Positions 13,533 to 18,328 are shown, counted from the stretch's first letter. The stretch: 64,000 bases of DNA from Escherichia coli (GCF_003790525.1 NZ_CP033635.1); one strand, 5' to 3'. Notes: generated by a model not told the origin, from the letters alone. A program made the numbers and translations.

Positions 13533-14205
13533 TGCACCGGATGGCAGTTTTACCTTTCGGTGCATCAATGAGATAAATGAAGGGCAATCAGTGAGATAAA
13601 TAACGAATTGGAGTGGGTTACATGGGTTCTGGTGAACAGAAATGAAATTCTTTTTCTCTATGCGATAGACAAATCGGGAATTGAAATCATCCCTACAGGC
13701 AACTCAGAATCTGGGGGCTGAAAACGCTACGAACCATCAGATTTGGATAATATTCATCACCGTTTCGGCCTGATTGTATCCAATCTGGAAGAAAAGTTTC
13801 ATGATTTTATGGGCGTTATCCTTATGGTGCTGGGCGACGAGAGTAATACTTCACGCCGGTTTTGTCGGATAATCCAGAAATATAGGGGCAAATCCAAACA
13901 GGAAAGATAGGGGGAGGGACGCGTTTCCGGCACAACCAGCGTTACGTCACCCTGCATTGTTAGTTACGAAAAGCGTACCGGAAACGCGGAACATTCTTTT
14001 AACACATTACAGGCATTCGCACACATCTTTTTTCTTCTTTGTGCTCTGAATACTGCAGTGCTCAATTAATATTAGCCACGTTTTACAGTAAGAACGGTAT
14101 CTGTTCTCTGATTCTTCCGGCGTCAACCCACAGTGTAATTATGAGGCCTGACGCTATTGTAATAATTCAGAATATAACAGCTGGTTACCGATTCAGACTC
14201 GAGGT

Positions 14206-14547
14206 TTATTTAAGAATCCATACCTGCTCGGCCTCCAGCACAGAAAACCGACACTCAAGCAGACTCGGCAGGCTGGTATGCTCCTGGCGGGCATTTTTGT
14301 ACTGATATTTTCCGGGCTGAGCACTTCTCAGGTTCAGATGCTTCATCAGCCTCCTGGCACGATAACTGCTCATCGGGATACCATTTTGAATCAGCATATC
14401 TGCCAGAGCACGCGCACCTGCGGAACCCCGACTCTGGTTCCAGACCCGGACTGTTTCGCTATACAATTTGATTCGCGCCGGATCAATCGTATTGAGCCGA
14501 TTCTGCCAGTGCCGGAACTGCTGCAATGAGCATCCAGAGCAGCGCAA
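14206..14547 (-). pseudogene. IS3-family transposase remnant (OrfB N-terminal region, truncated at the start of the DDE core)
   Basis: Translation ...[28 protein letters not shown]...EAEQVWILK resembles the OrfB N-terminus of IS3-family elements and ends where the catalytic core normally begins. An upstream leucine-zipper-like OrfA remnant is visible in the adjacent minus-strand sequence. Confidence 0.55.
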
Positions 14548-14887
14548 AGACTGACAACCGTGTGTCGCCGCTCAGTCTGGTAACTATCGTAAACCGTTCA
14601 GTGGGAAGGATATCAAGAGCACTGTAGCTTTTTAATATCGTTTTTTGTTCCTCCAGGCGACGAACCTGCTTTTCCAGTTCATGAATACGTTGCTACTCTG
14701 ATGTGAGTGGTGATGCAGAAGACGTGGTATCCTGACGTTCCCGCCTGAGCTGACGTACCCATGCCCCCCAGTGTATAGGAACCGACATTCATAGCTTCAC
14801 TGGATTCCCGGTATGAGTAACTTTTATTAACGATAAGCCAGGCTATTTGTGCATTGGTGTTGAGGTGAGCATATCACCTCTGTTCAG

Positions 14888-15097
14888 GTGACCAAATTCA
14901 GTGTGCCATTTCAGTCTGTAATGCGCTGTGTGAAAAAGCTCACTGACAGTCTGAGTATTTGTCTGCAAAGGATGGAGGCCCGTCGAGGGTTCCTGAAAAC
15001 CACTGGTGCGCTGGCGAATAAGCTGACAAGAATCATCTGGCGTGTTTTGAGCGATAGTATTGATTTTAATATGCAGAAGGCCGTTGTGATGAATTAA
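14888..15097 (+). pseudogene. IS110-family transposase C-terminal remnant
   Basis: C-terminal motif ALANKLTRIIWRVLSD resembles the conserved C-terminus of IS110-family transposases. There is no upstream catalytic domain. Confidence 0.4.
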
Positions 15098-15519
15098 ATA
15101 AAAACAGCAAGTTATAGAAAATATTTTTAACTGAGTTTACATACACTGATGAGATAACGGCTACCGCCCCTGTAACAGTCTGAAGTTGATCTGGGTAATC
15201 AAATACCGGTGTAGTGATTAGGAAACAGGGCCCGGATAACATCATGGCGCAGGTCATTGAACCTACTAACGACGCCGGATATATGGTCGCAAACCGCATC
15301 GAACCAGTACTTGCCTCACCTGGGACGTCCATATATGCTCAACAAAAGAGAGCGTTCAGAATTCTAGCCTCACATCATACCTGAAACCGCGTCCCGACCA
15401 TAGATGATTTTATCGCCGGTTTTTTATAACAATTGTTATATTTCTGTAACAATCTTTCCGTAGACTCACGTGCATAAAAATGATTCCCCTTGAAATCGAT
15501 TTTTTGAAAGGAAACCGCA

Positions 15520-17499
15520 ATGGGCAGACCGTTAAAAACTTTATTCAAACGTGAGCATAGTGAAGAAATCAGTAACCCGAGCGATAACCGCGCGTTTTCG
15601 CAGGTGGCGGAAGTTTATTTGTCACGCCGCCGTCTGTTACAGGCCGGCACGGTCGCCGGTGCCGCGGCAGCGTTCCCATTTCTGCTGAAACAGGAAAACG
15701 CGCTGGCGAAAGTGGTCTCCAAAGCAAGCGGTAACCTCGGCAAAGCGACGACGCTCGGTTTCACCAGCCTGCCGGTTTCCACGGAAGATACCGTTATCGT
15801 GCCGGAAGGATACATCGCGAAGCCCTTCTACAAATGGGGCGACGCCACCGGGATTGCCGGAAATCTGCCGGTTTTTAAAACCGACGGTAGCAACACCACG
15901 GAAGAACAGGCGGCGCAGGCCGGGATGCACCACGACGGCATGGCGTGGTTTAGCCTGCCGCAGGGCGGGAACAGCTCCGATCACGGCCTGCTTGCCATAA
16001 ACCATGAATACATCGATAACGGTCTACTGTTTAAAGATGGCGATGCCAACTGGAGCGCCGATAAAGCTCTTAAAGGCCAGAACGCGATGGGCGTGTCGGT
16101 CATTGAAGTAAAAAAAGTGCCCCTGGGCTGGGAAGTGGTGCGCCCGTCATCGTTCGCACGCCGTATCACCGTTAACACGCCGATGAAAATCACCGGTCCG
16201 GCGCTGCATAACCCACTGATGCAAACAGTTGACGATCCGAAAGGCGAAATCATTCTCGGCACCATGCAGAACTGTGCCAACGGATTTACGCCGTGGGGCA
16301 CCTATCTGACGTGTGAAGAGAACTGGTCCGATATTTTCGTAAAAAAAGCAGAGATGAACCCGCTGGAAAAACGTTACGGTATCAGCGGGAGCGACGACTC
16401 TTACCGCTGGAACGAAGTGGATAAAAGGTTCAGCGTCGACGCCACGCCGAACGAGCCGAACCGCTTCGGCTGGGTGGTGGAAATCGATCCATACGATCCG
16501 CATTCAGTGCCGCGCAAGCACACCGCGCTTGGTCGCATCAAACACGAAGGCGCGGCGGTGACAATTGCCCCGGATAACCGCGTTGTGGTCTATATGGGCG
16601 ATGACCAGAAATTCGAATACATATATAAATTTGTCTCGGAAGGAAAATTCAACCCGCAGGATCGCAAAGCCAACATGCACCTGCTGGAAAAAGGCACTCT
16701 GTACGTGGCGAAATTTAACGACGACGGCAAAGGCGAGTGGCTACCGCTGGTGTTCGGACAAAATGGGCTCGACGCCAGTAAAGGGTTTGAAAACCAGGGC
16801 GACCTGTTGATTAAAACCCGTCTGGCGGCAGACGCCGTGGGGGCCACTAAAATGGACCGCCCGGAGTGGATTGCGGTCGATCCATATCACGCCGGCAGCG
16901 TTTACTGCACGCTCACCAACAACAGCGATCGCGGTACGGAAGGAAAAGCGCCAGTGGATGCGGCCAACCCGCGCGCCAAAAACGTTTACGGCCACATCAT
17001 TCACTGGCTGGAGCATAACGGCGACCCGACCGCGCTGCAGTTTGCCTGGGATATTCTTGTGATGGGCGGTCGCACCGATACGGACAAACCGGAAACCAAA
17101 GGCAGCATGAAGGGTGCGGAATTCGGCAGCGCCGATGGCCTGAGCTTCGATCACCGCGGCGTGCTATGGATCCAGACCGACGTGTCGTCATCAACCATCA
17201 ATAGTAAAGATTACAAAGGCATGGGCAACAACCAGATGGTGGCGACGATCCCCGGTACCAATGAGTTCCGCCGCTTCCTGACCGGCCCGCGCGGCTGCGA
17301 AATCACCGGCATCGCGTTCACTCCGGATAACCGGACGCTGTTTATTAACATCCAGCACCCTGGCGAGCCAAGCGAAGGGCTTAGCGATCCGCAGCATCCG
17401 ACGGCAGTATCAAGCTGGCCTGACGGCGATAAGGCTGGTCGTCCGCGCTCCTCAACTGTCGTTATCGTAAAAGCCGACGGCGGCATAATCGGCACCTGA
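15520..17499 (+). CDS. phoX: PhoX-family (DUF839) phosphatase with Tat signal peptide
   Basis: 659 aa; twin-arginine motif SRRRLLQAGTVAGAAAAF near the N-terminus; C-terminal FTPDNRTLFINIQHPGE is typical of PhoX beta-propeller phosphatases. GC-rich relative to its neighbours. RBS GAAAGGAAA upstream. Confidence 0.7.
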   Translation: MGRPLKTLFKREHSEEISNPSDNRAFSQVAEVYLSRRRLLQAGTVAGAAAAFPFLLKQENALAKVVSKASGNLGKATTLGFTSLPVSTEDTVIVPEGYIAKPFYKWGDATGIAGNLPVFKTDGSNTTEEQAAQAGMHHDGMAWFSLPQGGNSSDHGLLAINHEYIDNGLLFKDGDANWSADKALKGQNAMGVSVIEVKKVPLGWEVVRPSSFARRITVNTPMKITGPALHNPLMQTVDDPKGEIILGTMQNCANGFTPWGTYLTCEENWSDIFVKKAEMNPLEKRYGISGSDDSYRWNEVDKRFSVDATPNEPNRFGWVVEIDPYDPHSVPRKHTALGRIKHEGAAVTIAPDNRVVVYMGDDQKFEYIYKFVSEGKFNPQDRKANMHLLEKGTLYVAKFNDDGKGEWLPLVFGQNGLDASKGFENQGDLLIKTRLAADAVGATKMDRPEWIAVDPYHAGSVYCTLTNNSDRGTEGKAPVDAANPRAKNVYGHIIHWLEHNGDPTALQFAWDILVMGGRTDTDKPETKGSMKGAEFGSADGLSFDHRGVLWIQTDVSSSTINSKDYKGMGNNQMVATIPGTNEFRRFLTGPRGCEITGIAFTPDNRTLFINIQHPGEPSEGLSDPQHPTAVSSWPDGDKAGRPRSSTVVIVKADGGIIGT

Positions 17500-17549
17500 T
17501 TCTGTTTCATCCGTCATTAAAAACGCAGGCGCGGTTAGCCTGTGTTTTT

Positions 17550-17990
17550 ATGGTAAAGTCCTGTCAGTCCGCGCGCTGGCTTCCTTCAACGCTTTGTCGT
17601 AATTTTTGTCAGTCTGCTCGTAGTCTGGAATGCCCGGAATTCCTCAACGCTATGCCACTGTTCAGGCGCGGTGTGATGAGAGTGGCGTCGCTGGGTTATG
17701 CCTTTCCGGGCACGATTCTGGCGATTGGTTTTCTGACTCCCTAAATGACCGCTGGCTGTCGGAACTACTGGATTACAGGGGGTTACCTTTAATGTCTGTC
17801 GGTGATTTGCTGTACGATGCGATTTCAGGCAATAGCCATCGGCGCACTTGATGTCCGGCTGGGACGTATACCAGCGTCACTGGAACAAGCCTCACGTCTG
17901 CTGGGAGAAAATGGTACAGGAACTTTTGTTCGGGTTCACTTTCCTGTGTTGCTCTGGTGAGCAGTGCCCTGCTGGTTTTCACTGATGCGA
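17550..17990 (+). pseudogene. Decayed ABC-transporter inner-membrane permease remnant
   Basis: Short frames encode permease-like segments (LGYAFPGTILAIGFL; ...ASLEQASRLLGENGTGTFVRVHFPVLL) split over different frames, consistent with a disrupted binding-protein-dependent permease. Confidence 0.35.
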
Positions 17991-18328
17991 TGAAAGAACT
18001 GCCAGTAACACTTCTTTATTCCGAATCGCTCTTCCGGACGATTAAGTATTGTTCATGGTGGCCGGAGAATGGTTTTCGAACCATAGATGAAGCCAGAAGT
18101 TGGTTAAGCAAGTTCACGCAATGGTACAACCTGGAACACAAGCACAGCGGTATTAAGTATGTTACTCCGGATGAACGCCATCGCGGAATTGATGCACAAA
18201 TACTGGAAGCCAGAAAAAAAGTTTATCGCGAAGCTCGCAAGCGTCATCCTGAGCGCTGGAGCAAACAGTTGCGTGACTGGGAACTCATTCAGGCAGTTTA
18301 TCTGAATCCAGAAAAAGAAGCGGCATAA
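17957..18328 (+). pseudogene. IS3-family transposase OrfB C-terminal remnant
   Basis: WYNLEHKHSGIKYVTPDERH resembles the conserved C-terminal end of IS3-family OrfB integrase-core domains. No N-terminal or DDE region is present. Confidence 0.5.

What the first reader, a model, noticed from the sequence alone, without database searches (positions are those of the whole stretch)
13533..18328. Gene-decay zone: IS3- and IS110-family fragments, decayed ABC permease, and an intact Tat-dependent PhoX
Between the LysR gene and tia there are at least three transposase remnants of different families and orientations (14206..14547, 14888..15097, 17957..18328) and permease debris (17550..17990), surrounding a single intact, GC-rich phoX-like gene. 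This indicates repeated insertion and deletion events, with possible selection to keep the secreted phosphatase.
Basis: partly seen in the sequence, partly recalled or inferred. Interest (0 to 1): 0.35.

Follow-up and report, generated by a model that had tools for sequence, protein, structure and literature searches.

The report
Borrowed phosphatase gene amid transposon debris
This stretch of an E. coli genomic island really is a patchwork of dead mobile-element and transporter fragments around one intact phosphate-scavenging enzyme gene (phoX) borrowed from a Cronobacter-like bacterium; it is an ordinary, already-annotated island mosaic, though the enzyme does look kept by selection.

Summary
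The window is E. coli chromosome, essentially strain TUM9803, inside an island at tRNA-Sec (selC).

Anatomy between LysR and the Tia-like porin:
- **14050-14915 (-):** an IS3-family (IS911/ISEc31-like) element with both ends, a 375-bp internal deletion, frameshifts and stops.
- **14914-15342 (+):** the 3' end of an IS110-family element.
- **15430-17595 (+):** a single-gene phoX cassette, 93% nucleotide-identical to the Cronobacter sakazakii chromosome. It holds a Pho box, -10, ribosome-binding site, a 659-codon ORF with a twin-arginine signal, and a terminator.
- **17596-18015 (+):** the C-terminal quarter of a two-domain "iron" ABC permease, frameshifted.
- **18016-18383 (+):** the 3' end of a second, unrelated IS3-family element.

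The same scars recur at 99% identity or more in about 94 complete genomes, at selC and at leuX, so they are inherited, not sequencing errors.

PhoX keeps all 223 near-invariant family residues. Ten chromosomal alleles differ at 15 synonymous and 3 nonsynonymous sites. Indels occur only in the debris.

PhoX is nevertheless rare (98 of 5426 genomes), and about 375 other records keep only a 112-bp relic. Every part belongs to a known family and RefSeq already annotates them. Interest is low.

The parts
12603..13532 (+). LysR-family (AllS-like) regulator gene; left boundary of the finding (context only)
   Evidence: Pfam HTH_1 and LysR_substrate. NCBIfam AllS model scores 268 bits, below its cut-off. 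PGAP CDS WP_001084376.1.
14050..14915 (-). IS3-family (IS911/ISEc31-like) insertion sequence remnant. Both inverted-repeat ends are present. About 375 bp of the DDE core is deleted, and it carries frameshifts and stops.
   Evidence: Blastn to an intact 1264-bp IS3-family element (L090): 14915-14857, 14838-14218 and 14182-14050 align to L090 301-359, 431-1054 and 1430-1564. NCBIfam NF033516 matches positions 32-104 and 111-220. The left end is 96% identical to the IS911 remnant end in K-12. PGAP calls it a pseudogene.
14798..14860 (-). Lineage-specific 63-bp patch replacing the first 107 bp of the IS3 orfA that other strains keep
   Evidence: Alignment with strain GPEC1031 (L002), which retains the IS911-type orfA start.
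14914..15342 (+). IS110-family element remnant: the last ~61 codons of the transposase (stop at 15095-15097) plus ~245 bp of 3' non-coding end
   Evidence: 93.7% nucleotide identity over 429 bp to the 3' end of an annotated intact IS110-family element on K. aerogenes plasmid pYD-K10_1. NCBIfam NF033542 positions 302-340 of 343, E=2.8e-4.
15343..15429 (.). Unassigned 87-bp spacer, possibly the rest of the IS110 right end
   Evidence: No match. The K. aerogenes reference copy is itself cut by an IS3 element at this point. Cronobacter homology starts at 15430.
15430..17595 (+). Cronobacter-type phoX cassette: promoter, gene, terminator
   Evidence: 93.0% nucleotide identity over 2169 bp to the C. 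sakazakii chromosome (L103 5911-8079). The protein is 94-96% identical to Cronobacter spp. PhoX. GC is 0.563 against 0.497 for the window.
15433..15450 (+). Putative PhoB-binding Pho box TTGTTATATTTCTGTAAC, followed 10 nt later by a -10-like TAGACT (15461-15466)
   Evidence: 14 of 18 matches to CTGTCATAWAWCTGTCAY. Only 2 of ~64,000 positions in the window score this high. A 13-15/18 site lies 52-66 nt upstream of phoX in all 12 other Enterobacteriaceae loci examined (69 nt in the window), and the sequence is identical in Cronobacter.
15520..17499 (+). phoX, 659 codons, intact. Residues 1-63 form a long n-region plus a twin-arginine signal (S35-R36-R37-R38-L-L-Q, hydrophobic core, A61-L-A63).
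   Evidence: PF05787 E=6e-166, positions 2-515 of 515. TIGR01409 scores 17.8 bits against a cut-off of 16.7. P. fluorescens PhoX structure 3ZWU, E=1.7e-167. 223 of 223 near-invariant family columns are kept, including R36, R37 and C252. RefSeq WP_000533458.1.
17526..17551 (+). Terminator-like hairpin CAGGC-N7-GCCTG followed by a T-run, 27 nt after the phoX stop
   Evidence: The scan listed the hairpin on the - strand only; the + strand T-run was read directly from the sequence. The hairpin is conserved in C. sakazakii and in the plasmid allele.
17596..18015 (+). Debris of a two-domain FbpB-type 'iron' ABC permease: roughly the last quarter, lacking the final ~25 residues. It has at least 3 frame changes, stops and an 11-bp lineage-specific deletion at 17800.
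   Evidence: PGAP calls it a pseudogene. The repaired translation is 75.9% identical, E=3e-71, to the C-terminal end of the 562-aa permease on K. pneumoniae pKPN-262. A longer version with a decayed ATPase exists in strains 702/18 and SFE8.
18016..18383 (+). 3' end of a second, unrelated IS3-family element: OrfB C-terminus (rve_3) and right end
   Evidence: 96% identical to the 3' part of full-length-annotated IS3-family transposase genes in other E. coli. In strain LR-33 the 330-aa OrfB sits in the same place upstream of the tia-like gene. NF033516 positions 317-368 of 369. No similarity to the 14050-14915 remnant.
18816..19556 (+). Tia/Hek-type outer-membrane beta-barrel protein gene; right boundary of the finding (context only)
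   Evidence: PF13505, E=4e-21. Sources name it 'outer membrane protein'. Identity to ETEC Tia itself was not tested.

Best explanation
The region is the integrase-proximal mosaic of an E. coli genomic island (here at selC). It was assembled by successive IS insertions and IS-associated deletions and is now inherited as a block.

Its only working gene is a 2.17-kb cassette captured from a Cronobacter-like enterobacterium. The cassette carries phoX with its own PhoB-dependent promoter (Pho box plus -10), ribosome-binding site and terminator.

Proposed mechanism:
1. Under phosphate starvation, PhoB activates transcription.
2. The 659-aa precursor folds and acquires its Fe/Ca cofactor in the cytoplasm.
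3. It is exported by TatABC via its SRRRLLQ signal.
4. In the periplasm it hydrolyses phosphomonoesters to release phosphate. This gives a zinc-independent alternative to PhoA.

The flanking pieces are inert scars: an IS3 remnant, an IS110 remnant, an ABC-permease fragment and a second IS3 remnant. They have no transposase, no transporter function and no demonstrated role.

Shown: the anatomy, origin, integrity and sequence-level constraint. Inferred: expression, PhoB control, Tat export, metal content and activity.
For: **Location and annotation.**

**Module boundaries, from comparison with other strains and species.**
- 14050-14915 to an intact IS3 element.
- 14914-15342 to an intact IS110-family element.
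- 15430-17595 to C. sakazakii.
- 17596-18015 to an intact Klebsiella permease.
- 18016-18383 to a full-length-annotated IS3 OrfB in strain LR-33.

**Inherited block.** The block is shared at 99% identity or more across genomes and sits at two tRNA sites.

**PhoX integrity.**
- Full-length PF05787 match.
- Tat signal above the curated cut-off.
- E=1.7e-167 to the solved PhoX structure, with the NCANG cysteine aligned.
- The N-terminal SRRR motif is conserved in orthologues.
- 223 of 223 near-invariant columns are kept.

**Regulation.** A positionally conserved Pho box lies 10 nt upstream of a -10-like hexamer. A terminator hairpin follows the gene.

**Constraint.**
- 13 of 13 alleles examined are intact.
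- 15 synonymous against 3 nonsynonymous segregating sites, P about 1e-7.
- dN/dS 0.13-0.14.
- Nonsynonymous site density is 0.2%, against 1.4-2.1% substitutions in the adjacent debris.
- Indels occur only in the debris.
Against: - No expression or enzymatic data exist for this protein. The literature searches found no paper on E. coli PhoX.
- All chromosomal alleles are at least 99.3% identical, so the time available for decay has been short.
- Part of the low dN/dS reflects constraint in the donor lineage rather than in E. coli.
- phoX occurs in only 98 of 5426 complete genomes, and about 375 records keep only a 112-bp relic. It is readily lost.
- Within the small plasmid clade the ratio is 4 synonymous to 7 nonsynonymous.
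- The Pho box matches 14 of 18 consensus positions, not all.
Confidence: 0.78

Rival explanations
1. phoX is intact only because the block was acquired and spread recently. There is no selection in E. coli, and it is simply the next piece to decay.
For: - Chromosomal alleles are 99.3-99.9% identical.
- The gene is rare, and about 375 records keep only a relic.
- The plasmid clade shows 4 synonymous to 7 nonsynonymous changes.
Against: - Over the same divergence, the debris collected indels (15 gap columns in the ten-strain alignment, plus a 44-bp net loss in the IS3 remnant), while phoX collected none.
- phoX substitutions are 15 synonymous to 3 nonsynonymous, against an expectation of about 23:77 (P about 1e-7).
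- Nonsynonymous density is 7-10 times lower than substitution density in the debris.
Confidence: 0.15
2. The IS remnants form a composite-transposon-like unit that still mobilises phoX between replicons.
For: The phoX cassette is found in islands at selC and leuX and on plasmids, always next to IS fragments.
Against: - Neither flanking remnant encodes a transposase, and the two flanks are different elements (IS110 3' end on one side, IS3 3' end on the other).
- No target-site duplication was found around the IS3 remnant.
- The chromosomal and plasmid contexts share only the cassette itself.
- The chromosomal block travels with a tyrosine integrase next to tRNA genes.
Confidence: 0.07
3. phoX is structurally intact but silent or inactive in E. 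coli, for example because the promoter is not recognised or because cofactor loading or Tat export fails.
For: There is no experimental evidence. The Pho box is imperfect at 14 of 18 positions.
Against: - The donor is a close relative (Cronobacter, Enterobacteriaceae) with the same upstream sequence.
- Orthologues across the family keep the same box and signal.
- The purifying-selection signature among E. coli copies would not be expected for a silent gene.
Confidence: 0.1
4. The 'fragments' are intact genes disrupted only by sequencing or assembly errors.
For: None found.
Against: - The same truncations and frameshifts occur in 17-94 independent complete assemblies.
- The remnants lack hundreds to more than a thousand bases relative to intact relatives.
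Confidence: 0.01

Closest known systems
PhoX alkaline phosphatase of Pseudomonas fluorescens Pf0-1 (PDB 3ZWU, 4ALF) and the Pfam PF05787 family
   Same: Full-length homology (E=1.7e-167). The NCANG cysteine and the KHE, GDD and MDRPEW motifs are conserved. It has a twin-arginine signal and is a predicted Pho-regulon member.
   Different: The sequence is divergent from the Pseudomonas enzyme (percent identity not computed). Here the gene is an accessory gene on an E. coli island rather than a core gene. Activity was not tested.
Chromosomal phoX of Cronobacter spp. (e.g. C. sakazakii)
   Same: 94-96% protein identity and 93% nucleotide identity, including the Pho box, 5' UTR and terminator. Same length of 659 aa.
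   Different: In Cronobacter the gene lies between an MFS sugar-transporter/inositol-type cluster and a MetNIQ-type ABC transporter. In the window only 2.17 kb survives, embedded in IS debris.
Tia-type pathogenicity islands of E. coli (PAI tia at selC in ETEC H10407; SE-PAI with integrase, sulfatase-type gene, Tia and ShiA)
   Same: An integrase next to a tRNA gene, followed by a sulfatase-domain phosphoethanolamine transferase gene and a Tia-like porin gene. Abundant partial transposases are described as remnants of stepwise assembly.
   Different: The review consulted lists no phosphatase for these islands. Identity of this porin to ETEC Tia was not tested. The rest of this island carries different cargo.
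IS911/ISEc31 group (IS3 family) and an IS110-family element on K. aerogenes plasmid pYD-K10_1
   Same: The remnants align to these elements at 77-96% (IS3) and 93.7% (IS110) nucleotide identity.
   Different: Both copies are dead. The IS3 copy lacks its catalytic core, and the IS110 copy lacks everything except its 3' end.
SBP-permease-ATPase 'iron' ABC transporter operon on K. pneumoniae plasmid pKPN-262
   Same: 75.9% protein identity of the repaired permease fragment. The same permease-then-ATPase order is seen in the longer decayed version.
   Different: Only about 420 bp of the 1689-bp permease gene survive in the window, with frameshifts. The substrate of the intact transporter is unknown.

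Membership tests
PhoX alkaline phosphatase family (PF05787) | Full-length match to the family profile above the curated threshold | tested here: met
   553.9 bits against a cut-off of 24, profile positions 2-515 of 515.
PhoX alkaline phosphatase family (PF05787) | Conservation of family-invariant residues, including the active-site cysteine of the NCANG motif (Cys179 in P. fluorescens chain numbering; its role as an iron ligand is recalled from Yong et al. 2014, which could not be read here) | tested here: met
   223 of 223 near-invariant columns from 76 non-E. coli homologues are kept, including C252, H342-E343 and D361-D362. The cysteine aligns to chain position 179 of 3ZWU.
PhoX alkaline phosphatase family (PF05787) | Twin-arginine (Tat) signal peptide | tested here: met
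   TIGR01409 scores 17.8 bits against a cut-off of 16.7. The Pfam TAT_signal match is below its cut-off at 16.7 against 22.7. The SRRR motif is conserved in orthologues and R36/R37 are near-invariant. Actual Tat dependence is not testable here.
PhoX alkaline phosphatase family (PF05787) | Fe/Ca-dependent phosphomonoesterase activity | not testable with these tools
   Needs enzyme assays and metal analysis.
Pho regulon (PhoB-activated promoters) | Pho box (two 7-bp repeats at 11-bp spacing) replacing the -35, about 10 bp upstream of the -10 | tested here: met
   TTGTTATATTTCTGTAAC matches 14 of 18 positions, with 10 nt to TAGACT. Only 2 window positions reach this score. A site scoring 13-15/18 lies upstream of phoX in all 12 other Enterobacteriaceae loci examined, and the sequence is identical in Cronobacter. 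PhoB binding itself was not tested.
IS3 family insertion sequence (14050-14915) | Terminal inverted repeats, orfA/orfB with frameshift, and an intact DDE (rve) catalytic domain | tested here: not met
   Both ends and orfA/orfB-N homology are present, but 375 bp of the catalytic region are deleted and the frames are broken. It is a remnant, not a functional member.
IS110 family insertion sequence (14914-15342) | Homology to an IS110-family transposase and element ends; intact transposase | tested here: not met
   Only the last ~61 codons and the 3' non-coding end survive. These are 86.7% aa and 93.7% nt identical to an intact element. Family origin is confirmed, function is lost.
IS3 family insertion sequence (18016-18383) | Intact transposase | tested here: not met
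   Only the OrfB C-terminus (NF033516 positions 317-368 of 369) and the right end survive. Related copies annotated as full-length IS3-family transposase genes exist elsewhere.
ABC transporter permease (BPD_transp_1, FbpB-type) | Continuous reading frame with the permease domain | tested here: not met
   At least 3 frame changes and stops. The Pfam match on the repaired translation is only 13.7 bits. Homology to an intact permease is clear at 75.9%, E=3e-71.
   Only the generic OMP_b-brl fold was established (PF13505). Sources call it 'outer membrane protein'.

The most novel reading that the evidence does not exclude
The Cronobacter-derived, PhoB-controlled, Tat-exported Fe/Ca phosphatase is a niche-adaptive accessory trait of E. 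coli. It travels with the integrase-ept-tia island module and is favoured particularly in poultry-associated lineages. It would give zinc-independent phosphate scavenging alongside PhoA, in parallel with the published contribution of PhoX to Campylobacter jejuni phosphate metabolism and stress resilience (PMC3197622).
Probability: 0.25. Interest if true: 0.4.

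Novelty: already known. Interest (0 to 1): 0.17.

Why it matters
There is little new biology here. Pathogenicity and fitness islands littered with IS debris are textbook. Every piece belongs to a known family and is already annotated in RefSeq.

The useful outcomes are three:
- A precise dissection showing that the surviving foreign DNA is exactly one promoter-gene-terminator unit of Cronobacter origin.
- Quantitative evidence that this unit, unlike its surroundings, is under purifying selection.
- A cheap testable hypothesis: some E. coli, notably avian-associated strains, carry a second, zinc-independent, Tat-exported alkaline phosphatase. 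This could also confound phoA-based reporter or phenotypic assays in such strains.

Tried and rejected
**Is the permease debris an ancestral neighbour of phoX?**
- tblastn of the fragment against 80 phoX loci (up to ±8 kb where the contig allowed) from other genera found nothing.
- The Cronobacter native context carries a different, MetNIQ-type transporter. Rejected.

**Other possible native neighbours.**
- A ugpB-like fragment lies downstream in strain 702/18, but it is not near phoX in any of the 80 loci.
- The phytase-like esterase next to the plasmid allele is adjacent to phoX in only 1 of the 80 loci.

**Is the IS110 3' non-coding end a structured (bridge/seek-type) RNA?**
- Rfam gave no such hit.
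- The minimum free energy is not lower than mononucleotide shuffles, z=+0.88. There is no support, so no claim is made.

**Rfam isrC hit.** At 14776-14891(-) it is below the gathering score (31.2 against 39). It coincides with the IS3 left end and is treated as IS homology, not an sRNA gene.

**Target-site duplication.** None is recognisable around the IS3 remnant.

**Internal repeats.** The fragments have no other copies in the 64-kb window.

**Literature.**
- No paper on an E. coli PhoX or on phoX in selC islands was found.
- The P. fluorescens PhoX structure paper could not be read. The full metal-ligand list was therefore not checked residue by residue, and a family-wide invariant-column test was used instead.

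**Donor search.** The genome-contig scan returned at best 80-81% identity (Franconibacter, Siccibacter) and missed Cronobacter. The donor genus emerged only from the 90% protein cluster.

Full report
**Where this is**

The window is E. coli chromosome. Positions 13400-18900 match strain TUM9803 (NZ_CP135671.1) at 99.8% over their full length, and window coordinate equals record coordinate minus 80002. The region lies about 7.5-12 kb from tRNA-Sec (selC) and its adjacent tyrosine integrase. It is therefore inside a selC genomic island.

RefSeq/PGAP already annotates the following:
- a LysR-type regulator;
- an IS3-family pseudogene;
- "PhoX family protein" WP_000533458.1;
- an "iron ABC transporter permease" pseudogene;
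- an "integrase core domain" ORF;
- an outer membrane protein;
- a phosphoethanolamine transferase.

**Observation check**

*Left IS3 remnant.*
- The minus-strand piece at 14206-14547 is part of an 866-bp remnant spanning 14050-14915.
- Against an intact 1264-bp relative, three segments align: 14915-14857 (left inverted repeat and leader), 14838-14218 (orfA and the N-terminal part of orfB, 77% identity) and 14182-14050 (C-terminal tail and right inverted repeat, 91%).
- About 375 bp of the catalytic core are missing.
- The left end is 96% identical to the IS911 remnant end in K-12.
- NCBIfam's IS3 model matches positions 32-104 and 111-220.

*IS110 remnant.*
- The ORF at 14888-15097 begins inside that IS3 inverted repeat. 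The real remnant is 14914-15342.
- It comprises the last ~61 codons of the transposase plus about 245 bp of 3' non-coding end.
- It is 93.7% nucleotide-identical to an annotated intact IS110-family element on a Klebsiella aerogenes plasmid. Peptide identity is 86.7%, E=2e-26.

*Permease debris.*
- It spans 17596-18015, not 17550-17990.
- Read across its frame changes, it is 75.9% identical (E=3e-71) to the C-terminal end of an intact 562-aa permease in an SBP-permease-ATPase operon on K. pneumoniae plasmid pKPN-262.

*Right IS3 remnant.*
- The ORF 17957-18328 is a chimera. About 20 codons of permease debris run into the C-terminus of a second, unrelated IS3-family OrfB.
- This remnant spans 18016-18383. 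It is 96% identical to the 3' part of full-length-annotated IS3-family transposase genes elsewhere.

*Not sequencing errors.* The defects recur in 17 complete genomes over at least 80% of 13400-18900, and in 94 genomes over the IS110-remnant-to-phoX stretch.

**The phoX cassette**

*Origin.*
- The protein falls in a 90% cluster with Cronobacter spp. PhoX. It is 96.1% identical to the C. sakazakii protein.
- At DNA level, window 15430-17595 is 93.0% identical to the C. sakazakii chromosome. Homology stops sharply at both ends.
- The foreign piece is therefore 2.17 kb: 90 bp of upstream region, the 1980-bp gene and 96 bp of downstream region. In Cronobacter the neighbours are quite different.
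- GC content is 0.56, against 0.50 for the window as a whole.

*Regulatory signals.*
- The upstream 90 bp contain TTGTTATATTTCTGTAAC (15433-15450), which matches 14 of 18 positions of the E. coli Pho-box consensus. Only two positions in the window score this high.
- Ten nucleotides later comes a -10-like TAGACT, which is the canonical Pho-promoter geometry.
- An equivalent site (13-15/18) lies 52-66 nt upstream of phoX in all 12 other Enterobacteriaceae loci examined; in the window the distance is 69 nt. The sequence is identical in Cronobacter.
- An AAGGA ribosome-binding site precedes the ATG.
- A GC-rich hairpin with a T-run follows the stop codon.

*Protein integrity.*
- It matches Pfam PhoX over the whole profile, E=6e-166.
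- It aligns to the solved P. fluorescens PhoX at E=1.7e-167, with the NCANG cysteine in register.
- It has the long n-region and SRRRLLQ twin-arginine motif shared by its orthologues. TIGR01409 scores above its cut-off.
- It retains all 223 columns that are near-invariant among 76 homologues of 60-81% identity.

**Is it being kept?**

- All 13 alleles examined (10 chromosomal, 3 plasmid) are intact.
- Among the 10 chromosomal alleles there are 18 segregating sites, 15 synonymous and 3 nonsynonymous. With about 452 synonymous and 1525 nonsynonymous sites, this gives binomial P about 1e-7.
- Nonsynonymous site density is 0.2% and synonymous density is 3.3%.
- The adjacent IS110 remnant shows 2.1% substitutions and the permease debris 1.4%. 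All indel columns but one fall in the debris (15); the other lies in the 3' non-coding flank of the cassette, and none lies in phoX.
- In this window's own lineage, the IS3 remnant lost its orfA start (a 63-bp patch in place of 107 bp). The permease debris lost 11 bp. phoX differs from the comparison strain only by three synonymous changes.
- Against the divergent plasmid allele, dN/dS is 0.13-0.14 at dS about 0.20. Part of that constraint was exerted in the donor lineages.

This supports purifying selection during the period in which the island copies diverged.

**Distribution**

- The cassette is in 98 of 5426 complete E. coli genomes, as 120 copies: 116 chromosomal and 4 on plasmids.
- The block from the IS110 remnant through phoX, the debris, the tia-like gene and the ept gene to an integrase is nearly identical in islands at selC (window) and at tRNA-Leu leuX in APEC BEN2908. 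The region to its left differs between strains.
- A longer decayed version of the ABC operon survives in strains 702/18 and SFE8.
- A full-length-annotated copy of the right-hand IS3 OrfB sits upstream of the tia-like gene in a phoX-less strain. The window's permease/IS3 junction is therefore best read as a deletion between the two.
- A second allele (93.6-93.8% nucleotide identity, 94.2% protein identity) sits on plasmids next to a phytase-like esterase. It is closer to C. sakazakii (97.3%) than to the island allele, which suggests separate capture.
- About 375 records keep only a 112-bp phoX relic beside an autotransporter gene. The gene is often lost.

**Mechanism proposed**

Phosphate limitation activates PhoB, which drives transcription from the Pho-box promoter. 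The precursor is cofactor-loaded, exported by Tat, and acts in the periplasm as a phosphomonoesterase that does not depend on zinc.

The Fe/Ca cofactor is taken from the family literature; PMC5454538 states that iron is the PhoX cofactor, whereas PhoA uses zinc. The structural steps above are shown. The physiological steps are inferred. The flanking remnants have no predicted function.

**Comparison and novelty**

This is a member of the PhoX family by every sequence criterion tested. The island architecture matches what reviews describe for tia-type and related islands, where partial transposases are read as remnants of stepwise assembly.

I found no paper on PhoX in E. coli. However, the protein and all the pseudogenes are correctly labelled in RefSeq. 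I rate the finding as already known in kind and of low interest. The residual value is the Cronobacter origin, the exact-cassette retention, and a possible avian association.

Noticed in passing
phoX nt 863-974 (window 16382-16493); L086 5000-5140; L087 4000-4140: A 112-141 bp phoX relic (91-94% identical; slightly closer to the plasmid allele) is annotated as an 'alkaline phosphatase' pseudogene. It sits beside an autotransporter gene on IncFII plasmids and in chromosomal islands, in about 375 E. coli records including BL21.
   Followed up: partly
host column: 30 of 60 listed phoX-positive complete genomes come from chickens or other birds. In evenly spread listings of near-universal hits the figure is roughly 5%. 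This is not corrected for clonality or sampling.
   Followed up: partly
L093 (APEC BEN2908) 12001-19664: The same IS110 remnant-phoX-debris-tia-ept-integrase block sits at tRNA-Leu (leuX, next to ahr/idnK) in BEN2908, but at tRNA-Sec (selC) in the window. TUM9803 itself carries a second phoX copy elsewhere in its chromosome.
   Followed up: partly
L003 7537-11136; L099; L100: A second phoX allele (93.6-93.8% nt) sits on E. coli plasmids, convergent with a phytase-like esterase gene. It is 97% identical in protein to C. sakazakii PhoX. Its left junction cuts the left half of the Pho box, 6 bp inside the island allele's junction.
   Followed up: partly
window 15425-15440: A perfect 16-bp palindrome, TATAACAATTGTTATA, straddles the left junction of the Cronobacter-type cassette and overlaps the left Pho-box half-site. 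It is absent from Cronobacter and the plasmid allele, so it was probably created by the junction.
   Followed up: no
window 14776-14891 (-): A sub-threshold Rfam isrC match (31.2 bits, gathering score 39, E=9e-4) coincides with the left end and leader of the IS3/IS911-like remnant.
   Followed up: partly
L005 11661-12435; L098 6624-7025: In strains 702/18 and SFE8 the debris downstream of phoX ends in a solute-binding-protein fragment. It is about 90% identical to the core E. coli ugpB, a Pho-regulon gene, and has a ~460-bp internal deletion.
   Followed up: partly
window 15181-15337; L088 3501-3657: 157 bp of the IS110-family 3' non-coding end are 85% identical to unannotated DNA on E. coli plasmids. 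That DNA directly follows a 389-aa 'hypothetical protein', possibly an unrecognised IS110-family transposase. The window stretch showed no unusual folding stability.
   Followed up: partly
window 18041-18328: PGAP annotates the 95-aa C-terminal scrap of the IS3 OrfB as a normal protein-coding gene (WP_032354518.1, 'integrase core domain-containing protein') rather than as a pseudogene.
   Followed up: no
window ~5100-13532: Upstream of the finding, the island carries a paralogue-like cluster with the AllS-like LysR regulator: carbamate kinase, xanthine permease, YlbE, FdrA, an AllH-family protein and an ankyrin-repeat protein. This suggests an accessory purine/oxamate catabolic module.
   Followed up: no
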